Shown one piece after another: positions 40,250-40,353 of a stretch of DNA of 57,222 bases. This DNA comes from an uncultured Gammaproteobacteria bacterium (GTDB lineage Bacteria; Patescibacteriota; Patescibacteriia; Magasanikbacterales; JBBTXJ01). The notes beneath the pieces were generated by a model. That model did no database searches, had not been told where the DNA came from, and worked only from the letters and a program-made list of their open reading frames with translations. The stretch lies in the NCBI GenBank assembly GCA_964610305.1, contig CAZSVL010000001.1, positions 174,781 to 232,002 of the forward strand. Direction: 5' to 3'. The translations under genes and the position numbers were made by a program. Every line of letters begins with the position of its first letter. Within the stretch, counting starts at the first letter, position 1.

Positions 40250-40353
40250 GGCCTCCCGAACCGACTACACCCCTTTCGGGATGCACCGCACCCTTTCGGA
40301 TGTGGACCTACGCGAATAAGTGTCGGTCAGGAGACCGTCTCTATTCGCGTAGG
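40250..40353 (-). ncRNA. Candidate structured leader RNA/attenuator upstream of the nuclease gene
   Basis: 15-bp closing stem followed by UUUU, two GAAA-capped hairpins, G-U pairs only on minus strand, competing 12-bp inverted repeat. Confidence 0.6.

What the first reader, a model, noticed from the sequence alone, without database searches (positions are those of the whole stretch)
40250..40353. Switch-like structured RNA leader in front of the thermonuclease gene
Seen on minus strand: GGUCUCCUGACCGAC (40336-40322) pairs with GUCGGUUCGGGAGGCC (40265-40250), 15 bp with 2 G-U and one bulge, then UUUU. It encloses CAUCC-GAAA-GGGUG and CAUCCC-GAAA-GGGGUG hairpins. G-U pairs and GNRA loops work only on this strand. 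A perfect 12-bp inverted repeat (40307-40318/40342-40353) would trap the 5' strand of the closing stem in its 23-nt loop, so the folds compete or form a pseudoknot. Inference: attenuator/riboswitch-like control of the nuclease, or an element-encoded ncRNA. I do not recognise the family.
Basis: partly seen in the sequence, partly recalled or inferred. Interest (0 to 1): 0.75.

Follow-up and report, generated by a model that had tools for sequence, protein, structure and literature searches.

The report
LOOT RNA leader before nuclease gene
The flagged RNA is a member of LOOT, a catalogued RNA family with no known function. Here and in about 70 relatives it sits directly in front of a gene and ends in a conserved, co-varying terminator-like helix that the database model lacks, so it probably acts as an on/off leader and not as a free small RNA.

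Summary
The element is not a new family. Window 40266-40388 (minus strand) is a full-length match to Rfam LOOT (RF03000), at 61.9 bits against a gathering score of 46.4.

It joins the apex of LOOT hairpin P2 to the 16 nt that follow P4, and a U tract comes next. I collected 73 non-redundant LOOT copies, and Rfam confirmed all 26 relatives that it scanned. In these copies each tail pairs with its own apex far better than with other apices (-21.8 against -12.4 kcal/mol, z = -18.7). The helix is 94.6% paired, and 9 of its 10 pairs show compensatory changes. It continues into an A-tract:U-tract extension that also covaries.

Of 66 copies with enough downstream sequence, 65 have a same-strand ORF, starting a median of 39 nt after the U tract (15 nt in the window). 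A promoter-like box lies just upstream of the element.

The best reading is a 5' leader with a conditional, pseudoknot-forming terminator that controls a membrane-anchored SNase nuclease on an integrated element of a marine Patescibacteria genome. The signal it responds to is unknown, and no transcript data were available.

The parts
40400..40428 (-). Promoter-like site: TTGTGG (40428-40423), a 17-nt spacer, then GATAAT (40405-40400). The likely transcription start is at about 40393-40391, inside the conserved CACAAT box (40394-40389).
   Evidence: Read from the sequence. It matches 8 of 12 consensus positions, which is below the scanning tool's threshold. In relatives, the best TATAAT-like hexamer clusters 25-29 nt upstream of P1, and an ACAAYTNAAT box follows it. 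The assignment is inferred, not shown.
40361..40388 (-). LOOT P1 domain. UG-CCUA...AUGG-CA closes an inner hairpin, GUCCAC-CCU-GUGGAU.
   Evidence: Rfam alignment, model positions 1-34. CCTA and ATGG are invariant in 70 copies. The closing pairs covary (helices 1-2).
40354..40360 (-). A-rich junction J1/2, CAUAAAU.
   Evidence: Rfam alignment. AAA is conserved in alignment A5.
40307..40353 (-). LOOT P2. It has a perfect 12-bp basal stem (40353-40342 with 40318-40307) and a 23-nt apical region that can form a local hairpin: CGGUC (40337-40333), UCCU, GACCG (40328-40324).
40322..40336 (-). 5' strand of the tail helix. It spans the whole local apex hairpin of P2, so the two helices are mutually exclusive.
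   Evidence: alignment columns 81-90.
40286..40305 (-). LOOT P3, a hairpin with a GAAA tetraloop.
   Evidence: helix 7: 94.6% paired, 7 of 9 pairs with changes on both sides.
40266..40285 (-). LOOT P4, a hairpin with a GAAA tetraloop. The Rfam model ends here.
40250..40265 (-). Tail, the 3' strand of the tail helix (GUCGGUUCGGGAGGCC). It lies outside the Rfam LOOT model.
   Evidence: alignment columns 171-181: 94.6% paired, 9 of 10 pairs with changes on both sides.
40241..40249 (-). U-rich tract UUUUGUGUU directly after the helix. It matches the family consensus C-UUU-(U/G)-U-G-UU and can pair with the A-rich GAAUAGAGA on the 5' side of the apex strand.
   Evidence: A-tract:U-tract extension: 90.2% paired and covarying.
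39250..40230 (-). Controlled gene: a 326-aa nuclease with an N-terminal hydrophobic anchor, an SNase domain and a Cys-rich C-terminal domain. The likely start is AUG 40230, 15 nt after UUUU. The GUG at 40245 is less likely.
   Evidence: Pfam PF00565. PADLOC model SNc+LTD, E = 1e-53. The N-terminus MDSF... aligns with the starts of the LOOT-led homologues L150, L149 and L311.

Best explanation
The element is a divergent, full-length member of the LOOT RNA family (Rfam RF03000) together with a conserved 3' extension that the Rfam model does not include. It is transcribed from a promoter about 10 nt upstream of P1 and forms the 5' leader of the SNase nuclease mRNA.

After P1-P4, a G-rich 16-nt tail is complementary to the apex of hairpin P2, and a U-rich tract follows at once. 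When the tail pairs with the apex it builds an 'A-tract, GC-rich stem, U-tract' helix, 15 bp here and extendable to about 20 bp. That helix either melts the local apex hairpin while keeping the P2 base, giving an H-type pseudoknot, or it melts P2 altogether. In both cases it has the layout of an intrinsic terminator 15 nt before the start codon.

Nuclease expression would therefore depend on whether the apex stays in its local hairpin (read-through) or is captured by the tail (termination). I infer that the state of the conserved LOOT core (P1, the A-rich junction and the GNRA hairpins P3 and P4) sets this choice, by binding a factor that is still unknown.

Shown: family membership, the helix and its covariation, the position of the U tract, and the leader position. 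Inferred: termination itself, the direction of control, and the existence of a trigger.
For: **Membership.** 61.9 bits against a gathering score of 46.4, covering model positions 1-121.

**The helix is real and conserved.** In 73 non-redundant LOOT copies, cognate apex:tail pairing averages -28.5 kcal/mol against -17.2 for non-cognate pairs (z -18.4, 0 of 10000 permutations). With the tail cut at the U tract the figures are -21.8 against -12.4 (z -18.7). On alignment A5 the helix is 94.6% paired and 9 of its 10 pairs change on both sides. All shuffle and slide controls are far lower.

**U tract.** 70 of 73 copies have T{3,} starting 13-17 nt after P4. Anchored on the last helix pair, U is at 83-99% at positions +2 to +6. 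The tract pairs with the upstream A-rich flank and covaries with it.

**Competing helices.** Alignment column 82 covaries with both its local partner and its tail partner. In the window, the LOOT fold (-61 to -67.9 kcal/mol), the tail-helix fold (-66.8) and the pseudoknot estimate (about -76 before any pseudoknot penalty) are close in energy.

**Leader position.** 65 of 66 copies have a same-strand ORF starting a median of 39 nt after the U tract. 80% start within 60 nt, against 17% at random positions. That leaves no room for a separate promoter, and in the window the gap is 15 nt.

**Recurrence on this gene family.** LOOT sits directly upstream of SNase homologues in L149, L150, L222 and L311, and upstream of a small ORF plus SNase in L118.

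**Set validity.** All 26 relatives that Rfam scanned are above the gathering score, at the coordinates my scanner gave.
Against: There are no transcript data, because no RNA run holds this stretch or the two relatives I tried. Termination is therefore inferred from anatomy alone.

The 'terminator' is not a simple hairpin: its strands are about 56 nt apart and enclose P3 and P4, and the consensus terminator scan does not call it.

The U tract is short here (UUUU, then GUGUU). In the family it has invariant U and G positions and is base-paired, which would also fit a purely structural helix.

The genes behind LOOT are heterogeneous, and no ligand or protein partner is known.

Most relatives carry a third, tail-complementary segment after the U tract. 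A simple attenuator model does not explain it, and the window's copy lacks it.

My relatives were collected with a P3-specific pattern, so they sample one large subgroup of LOOT.
Confidence: 0.6

Rival explanations
1. LOOT is a free-standing small RNA, which is how Rfam types it ('Gene; sRNA'). On this reading the tail helix plus U tract is simply its constitutive terminator and 3'-end structure. The RNA acts in trans, and the nuclease gene is only a neighbour expressed by leaky read-through.
For: Rfam types the family as an sRNA. The unit 'promoter, about 150-nt structured RNA, helix, U tract' looks like a complete small gene. The variable apex could be a target-recognition loop.
Against: 65 of 66 copies have a same-strand ORF starting a median of 39 nt after the U tract (15 nt here), with no room for another promoter. 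An independent sRNA gene has no reason to keep that orientation and spacing. The variable apex covaries with its own tail, so it is occupied in cis.
Confidence: 0.17
2. The tail helix is a constitutive pseudoknot of the folded LOOT RNA and not a terminator, and the U tract is just one strand of that helix. Control, if any, acts on translation or mRNA stability, for example through the competing tail:a2 hairpin seen in most relatives or through occlusion of the start region.
For: The U tract pairs with the A-rich flank and covaries with it, and it has near-invariant U and G positions. A tail-complementary segment after the U tract is significant across the family (z -9.3) and overlaps the start codon in a few copies such as L179. 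The pseudoknot state is the most stable estimate in the window.
Against: The window's copy has no a2 segment (-5.5 kcal/mol). Its likely start codon, AUG 40230, lies outside the helix in an A-rich unstructured stretch. In most relatives a2 ends about 23 nt before the ATG and does not cover it. A GC-rich helix that runs straight into UUUUUGUU is the standard terminator layout.
Confidence: 0.17
3. It is a DNA-level element: the inverted and direct repeats serve as an operator or a recombination site of the integrated element, not as an RNA structure.
For: The locus lies in an island with a serine recombinase next to tRNA-Asn. The repeats are perfect or near-perfect at the DNA level. The plus strand folds about as well by energy.
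Against: G-U pairs are frequent in the conserved helices (for example U-G in 60 of 70 and 32 of 70 sequences at two tail-helix positions), and these would be A-C mismatches on the other strand. GNRA tetraloops and the Rfam covariance model fit one strand only. Compensatory changes preserve pairing, not sequence.
Confidence: 0.03
4. It is a self-cleaving ribozyme or another catalytic RNA.
For: It is a compact multi-helix RNA with a possible pseudoknot and conserved unpaired nucleotides (CCUA, AUGG, AAA).
Against: No ribozyme family matches, even at E <= 1 in the local scan. The only hit is LOOT. No known catalytic core motif is present.
Confidence: 0.02

Closest known systems
LOOT RNA motif (Rfam RF03000). 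It comes from the Weinberg/Breaker ZWD alignments of the 2017 '224 candidate structured RNAs' study (PMC5737381). It is shown as a 'metagenomic-based RNA' in the Rfam 14 paper (PMC7779021) and had two base pairs added in Rfam 15 (PMC11701678).
   Same: It is a full-length match to the covariance model (positions 1-121), with the same four-domain layout: P1 with CCUA/AUGG, the A-rich junction, a long P2 with a variable apex, and the tetraloop hairpins P3 and P4.
   Different: This is the lowest-scoring of the 27 copies confirmed here (61.9 bits against 70.7-93.9), with a short P1 loop and an 8-bp P4. The published model stops at P4 and types the family as an sRNA. The tail helix, the U tract and the leader position documented here are not in the model. 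I could not read the 2017 supplement, so I cannot exclude that a pseudoknot or terminator was mentioned there.
Rho-independent (intrinsic) terminators and transcription attenuators in 5' leaders, for example terminator/antiterminator riboswitch expression platforms (established textbook knowledge).
   Same: A GC-rich helix is followed directly by a U-rich tract and has a complementary upstream A-tract. It sits between a promoter and a start codon. One of its strands is shared with a mutually exclusive local hairpin.
   Different: The two strands of the helix are separated by about 56 nt of folded RNA (the P2 3' strand, P3 and P4), so forming it gives a pseudoknot with the P2 base or melts P2. 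No sensor ligand, leader peptide or binding protein is known.
Pseudoknot-based riboswitches such as ZTP (pfl), fluoride and preQ1 (from my own knowledge).
   Same: A long-range pairing between an upstream loop and a 3' tail decides the state of an adjacent expression platform.
   Different: In those classes the ligand-stabilised pseudoknot usually prevents terminator formation. Here the long-range helix itself carries the U tract. The downstream genes are not a coherent metabolic set. No Rfam riboswitch family matches.
Processive-antitermination leader RNAs (HK022 put, EAR; from my own knowledge).
   Same: They are promoter-proximal structured RNAs in mobile-element or accessory operons that influence whether RNA polymerase reads through terminators.
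   Different: There is no sequence or model similarity. LOOT carries its own terminator-like helix instead of modifying polymerase for distant terminators. This is an analogy only and was not tested.

Membership tests
LOOT RNA (Rfam RF03000) | Covariance-model score at or above the curated gathering score, over the full model | tested here: met
   61.9 bits against a gathering score of 46.4, model positions 1-121 of 121, E = 2.8e-9 for the whole window, minus strand only.
LOOT RNA (Rfam RF03000) | P1 with the conserved CCUA(A) and (GC)AUGG strands closed by 2-4 pairs, followed by an A-rich junction | tested here: met
   The sequence is UG-CCUA...AUGG-CA followed by CAUAAAU. CCTA and ATGG are invariant in 70 copies. 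The window has CCUAC and AUAUGG where the consensus has CCUAA and GCAUGG.
LOOT RNA (Rfam RF03000) | A long P2 hairpin followed by two adjacent tetraloop hairpins (P3 with GAAA, then P4) | tested here: met
   P2 is 40353-40307, with a 12-bp base. P3 is 40305-40286 and P4 is 40285-40266, both with GAAA loops.
LOOT RNA (Rfam RF03000) | Helices supported by covariation among homologues | tested here: met
   84.4% of cells are paired against 69.3% in shuffles, 31 of 38 pairs change on both sides, and 0 of 500 shuffles reach the observed values.
LOOT RNA (Rfam RF03000) | Occurrence in uncultivated or metagenomic bacteria | tested here: met
   The source is a seawater metagenome. All named LigA relatives are Patescibacteria, Paceibacterota or Parcubacteria. 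LOOT-bearing genome loci are titled Saccharibacteria or Patescibacteria, plus two MAGs titled 'Gammaproteobacteria' whose labels I did not verify.
Intrinsic (Rho-independent) terminator / attenuator | A stable GC-rich helix immediately followed by a U-rich tract | tested here: inconclusive
   The helix (15 bp, -25.6 kcal/mol) is followed directly by UUUUGUGUU, and the feature is conserved in 70 of 73 copies. However, the helix is long-range and not a simple hairpin, and the consensus scan does not call it.
Intrinsic (Rho-independent) terminator / attenuator | Transcript 3' ends at the U tract, with conditional read-through | not testable with these tools
   No RNA runs hold the window or the two relatives I tried.
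Riboswitch | A conserved aptamer coupled to an expression platform with mutually exclusive helices | tested here: inconclusive
   A conserved core plus competing apex-hairpin and tail helices is shown. No ligand pocket or ligand has been identified.
Riboswitch | Controlled genes form a coherent functional set linked to the ligand | tested here: not met
   The first downstream ORFs of 65 copies hit 30 different Pfam families. The most frequent is SNase (5 of 65), most ORFs have no hit, and 43 of 65 have an N-terminal hydrophobic segment.
Known cis-regulatory or ribozyme Rfam families other than LOOT | Any match at E <= 1 in window 39900-40900 | tested here: not met
   LOOT is the only match.

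The most novel reading that the evidence does not exclude
LOOT is not an sRNA. It would be a Patescibacteria-wide class of 5' leader whose conserved core senses an as yet unknown signal: a small molecule, a host- or element-encoded protein, or an RNA. Its fast-evolving P2 apex and matching tail would form a private, pseudoknotted terminator helix, so that each accessory, defence or surface-protein gene on mobile islands carries its own insulated copy of the same switch. That would give LOOT its first function, and it would be an expression platform in which the long-range pseudoknot is itself the terminator.
Probability: 0.4. Interest if true: 0.7.

Novelty: new member of a known kind. Interest (0 to 1): 0.4.

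Why it matters
LOOT has been in Rfam since release 14 as a metagenome-derived 'sRNA', and none of the papers I could search assigns it a function. Three results here turn it into a testable candidate gene-control element of CPR bacteria. First, it lies in a Patescibacteria genome as a promoter-proximal leader. Second, it carries a strongly covarying helix outside the Rfam model. Third, that helix has a terminator layout and competes with a model helix. RNA-based regulation in CPR bacteria is almost unexplored.

For this window, the result means the nuclease on the tRNA-Asn island is probably expressed conditionally. The nuclease is membrane-anchored and resembles a candidate defence protein.

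The finding is not a new RNA class. Notes from this scan show that the same family has been met many times, so the added value of this copy is modest.

Tried and rejected
- **A loose LOOT pattern** on viral contigs gave only chance hits: none of the 80 loci kept passed a hairpin filter. A pattern built from all upper-case consensus positions found nothing and would also have missed confirmed members.
- **Seeding my own covariance model** from MAFFT alignments was abandoned, because MAFFT shifted the ATGG box and the 3' hairpins. I used a Python structure descriptor instead and checked it against Rfam. They agreed at all 27 sites, with no extra or missed hits in 44 scanned loci.
- **blastn of the element against phage genomes** found no match.
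- **RNA-seq evidence** could not be obtained: no runs for the window or for two Hainich groundwater relatives.
- **My interim idea that the tail helix masks a Shine-Dalgarno site** (GGGAGG, 6 nt before GUG 40245) is rejected. LOOT-led homologues align at AUG 40230 with the same A-rich leader. The G-rich tail end is a family feature, Shine-Dalgarno motifs are infrequent in this genome (23% of long ORFs against an 8% background), and in relatives the start lies a median of 39 nt after the U tract.
- **An obligatory LOOT-nuclease link** is rejected. Only 4 of 18 nuclease loci that include the N-terminal region carry LOOT, and LOOT precedes many other genes.
- **A second att-like copy of a tRNA-Asn fragment** that would delimit the island was not found in window 28-44 kb.

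Full report
**1. Observation.** On the minus strand, GGUCUCCUGACCGAC (40336-40322) pairs with GUCGGUUCGGGAGGCC (40265-40250). The duplex has 15 bp, two G-U pairs and one bulged U, with dG -25.6 kcal/mol, and UUUU follows at 40249-40246. Between the two strands lie two GAAA-capped hairpins (40305-40286 and 40285-40266). The 5' strand sits in the 23-nt loop of a perfect 12-bp stem (40353-40342 with 40318-40307). The loop-tail pairing is not chance. None of 5000 shuffled tails reaches the observed -27.6 kcal/mol (mean -12.0, sd 3.1). Among the tails of 73 related RNAs, the window's own tail is the best partner for its apex.

**2. Identity.** A gathering-threshold Rfam scan of the whole window gives one non-tRNA hit: LOOT (RF03000) at 40266-40388 on the minus strand. 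It scores 61.9 bits against a gathering score of 46.4 and covers model positions 1-121 of 121. A permissive scan of 39900-40900 finds nothing else.

In the papers I could search, LOOT appears only in three ways: as one of the metagenome-derived motifs of the Weinberg/Breaker collection (PMC5737381, described in a supplement I could not read), as an example figure in the Rfam 14 paper (PMC7779021), and as a test case for covariation methods (PMC7657543; PMC11701678). No function is reported.

**3. Context.** The next gene on the same strand is a 326-331-aa protein with an N-terminal hydrophobic segment and an SNase domain (PF00565). It matches a PADLOC candidate-defence model, SNc+LTD (E = 1e-53). 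Around it lie a DUF4238 gene, a HicB-like mini-ORF and a large serine recombinase whose ORF runs into tRNA-Asn, so this is an integrated element. To the right are rpoD, dnaG and ligA. All named LigA relatives are Patescibacteria or Paceibacterota, and the sample is a seawater metagenome. GC content is about 45%.

**4. Relatives.**
- Contigs encoding nuclease homologues gave LOOT in L118 (ahead of a small ORF plus SNase) and in L123.
- A genome-collection scan with the nuclease alignment gave 80 loci. Among the 18 loci whose match reaches the N-terminus, Rfam finds LOOT in four: L137, L149, L150 and L179. In L149 and L150 it sits directly in front of full-length homologues.
- A Python structure descriptor located 80 distinct cores, which reduce to 73 non-redundant apex/tail combinations.
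- Rfam confirmed all 26 relatives that it scanned, at 70.7-93.9 bits, always over model positions 1-121 and at the coordinates my scanner gave, with no extra or missed hits.
- The window's copy is the most divergent of the 27 confirmed.

**5. The tail helix is a conserved feature that the Rfam model lacks.**
- Each apex pairs with its own tail much better than with other tails: -28.5 against -17.2 kcal/mol (z -18.4, 0 of 10000 permutations). With the tail cut at the U tract the figures are -21.8 against -12.4 (z -18.7).
- On a 70-sequence alignment (A5), the helix (columns 81-90 with 171-181) is 94.6% paired and 9 of its 10 pairs change on both sides. Examples are C-G 39 / U-A 25, C-G 38 / A-U 21 / G-C 4, and G-C 41 / A-U 25. 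This equals P3, the best-aligned canonical stem, and all shuffle and slide controls are far lower.
- Frequent U-G pairs (60 of 70 and 32 of 70 sequences at two positions) show that the pairing is at the RNA level on this strand.
- The local apex hairpin of the Rfam model is less well supported in this alignment (67.6% paired). One of its columns covaries with both its local partner and its tail partner, as expected for two mutually exclusive helices.

**6. Terminator layout.**
- In 70 of 73 copies a run of three or more U starts 13-17 nt after P4.
- Anchored on the last helix pair, the next bases follow C-UUU-(U/G)-U-G-UU, with U at 83-99% at positions +2 to +6 (63% at +5) and G at 94% at +7.
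- This tract pairs with the A-rich AUAAAGA on the 5' side of the apex strand (90.2% paired) and covaries with it (A-U 37, C-G 18, G-U 7 at one position).
- The full helix is therefore about 18-19 bp in the order A-tract, GC-rich stem, U-tract. That is the canonical intrinsic-terminator layout, except that the 'loop' holds the P2 3' strand, P3 and P4.
- In the window three states are close in energy: the LOOT fold with a free tail (-61.0 kcal/mol, or -67.9 for the overall MFE), the tail helix with P2 melted (-66.8), and the P2 base plus tail helix as a pseudoknot (about -76 before any pseudoknot penalty).

**7. Leader position.**
- Of the 66 copies with at least 250 nt downstream, 65 have a same-strand ATG-ORF of at least 50 codons. 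It starts a median of 39 nt after the U tract. 80% start within 60 nt, against 17% at random positions.
- Upstream, the best TATAAT-like hexamer clusters 25-29 nt before P1 and is followed by a conserved ACAAYTNAAT box.
- In the window, TTGTGG-17-GATAAT (40428-40400) precedes CACAAT and then P1. It matches 8 of 12 consensus positions, which is below the scan tool's cut-off.
- The nuclease start is most likely AUG 40230, 15 nt after UUUU. The N-termini of the LOOT-led homologues align there (MDSF... against MDDF... in L150) and have similar A-rich leaders.
- I therefore drop my interim idea that the GGGAGG in the tail is a Shine-Dalgarno site masked by the helix.

**8. Genes behind LOOT.** The first downstream ORFs of 65 copies hit 30 Pfam families. 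SNase is the most frequent (5 of 65, two of them from the unbiased metagenome set). Others include a DNA methylase, restriction-related domains, bPH and zinc ribbons, and most ORFs have no hit. 43 of 65 have an N-terminal hydrophobic segment. This argues against a metabolite-regulon riboswitch and for a generic control module on accessory, defence-like or surface-protein genes.

**9. Mechanism.**
- Best-supported (confidence about 0.6): a promoter-proximal 5' leader in which the apex either stays in its local hairpin, giving read-through into the nuclease gene, or is captured by the tail to form the A-tract/stem/U-tract helix, giving termination 15 nt before the start codon. The conserved core would set the balance through an unknown factor.
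- Shown: membership, the helix and its covariation, the U-tract position, the competition with the apex hairpin, and the leader position.
- Inferred: termination, the direction of control, and the trigger.
- Rivals: a free sRNA with a constitutive terminator (0.17), a constitutive structural pseudoknot with control at the level of translation or stability (0.17), a DNA-level site (0.03), and a ribozyme (0.02).

**10. Unexplained.** In most relatives, the 10-17 nt just after the U tract are complementary to the copy's own tail (z -9.3, 0 of 10000 permutations). This gives a tail-UUUUU-a2 hairpin that ends a median of about 23 nt before the ATG. Because it is transcribed after the U tract, it cannot act as an antiterminator. 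The window's copy lacks it.

**11. Earlier notes of this scan.** They describe LOOT many times as a CPR 5' leader with a terminator-like helix or pseudoknot, and some propose start-codon masking. I treated them as leads. My own tests agree on the helix, the U tract and the leader position. They do not support start-codon masking for this copy.

**12. Verdict.** This is a new and rather divergent member of LOOT. The family-level result, a covarying terminator-like pseudoknot helix outside the Rfam model together with a consistent leader position, gives this RNA of unknown function a testable role.

Noticed in passing
window 41388-43063: The large serine recombinase ORF (41388-43052, plus strand) overlaps tRNA-Asn (42989-43063, minus strand) by 64 nt, as expected at the edge of an element integrated at a tRNA gene. 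No second copy of a tRNA fragment of 16 nt or more was found in window 28-44 kb, so the other island end is undefined.
   Followed up: partly
LOOT loci L137-L332, the 10-17 nt after the U tract (e.g. L306, L238, L244, L149): A third element, 'a2', is complementary to the copy's own tail (z -9.3). It forms a hairpin with the U tract in its loop and ends a median of about 23 nt before the ATG. It is absent from the window's copy, and its function is unknown.
   Followed up: partly
window 40389-40394 and the 20-30 nt upstream of P1 in relatives: A conserved ACAAYTNAAT box lies between a -10-like hexamer and LOOT P1. In the window it reads CACAAT and abuts P1. It is probably the transcription start and initial transcribed sequence.
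   Followed up: partly
window 40567-40588 and 40612-40746: A bidirectional terminator-like hairpin (AGAATCGGCATAAGCCGATTTT) lies between the LOOT promoter region and a 44-aa HicB-like ORF on the plus strand. No HicA partner is evident among the ORFs listed nearby.
   Followed up: no
window 14000-20000: GC content rises to 50-56%, against about 44-45% elsewhere. The region encodes a 625-aa OmpA-family protein and an AAA ATPase and may be foreign.
   Followed up: no
window 31831-36924: A 1697-aa protein on the minus strand has only a weak DUF5667 match and contains internal 33-nt repeats (33346, 34174, 34324). It is probably a giant surface protein.
   Followed up: no
L137, L149 (genome contigs): MAGs titled 'uncultured Gammaproteobacteria bacterium' carry LOOT plus the Patescibacteria-type nuclease. 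Either the record titles are unreliable or LOOT extends beyond CPR.
   Followed up: no
window 37892-38803: A DUF4238 protein with a weak PADLOC DUF4238-Pers match sits about 450 nt beyond the 3' end of the nuclease gene on the same strand, which suggests defence-type cargo on the island.
   Followed up: partly
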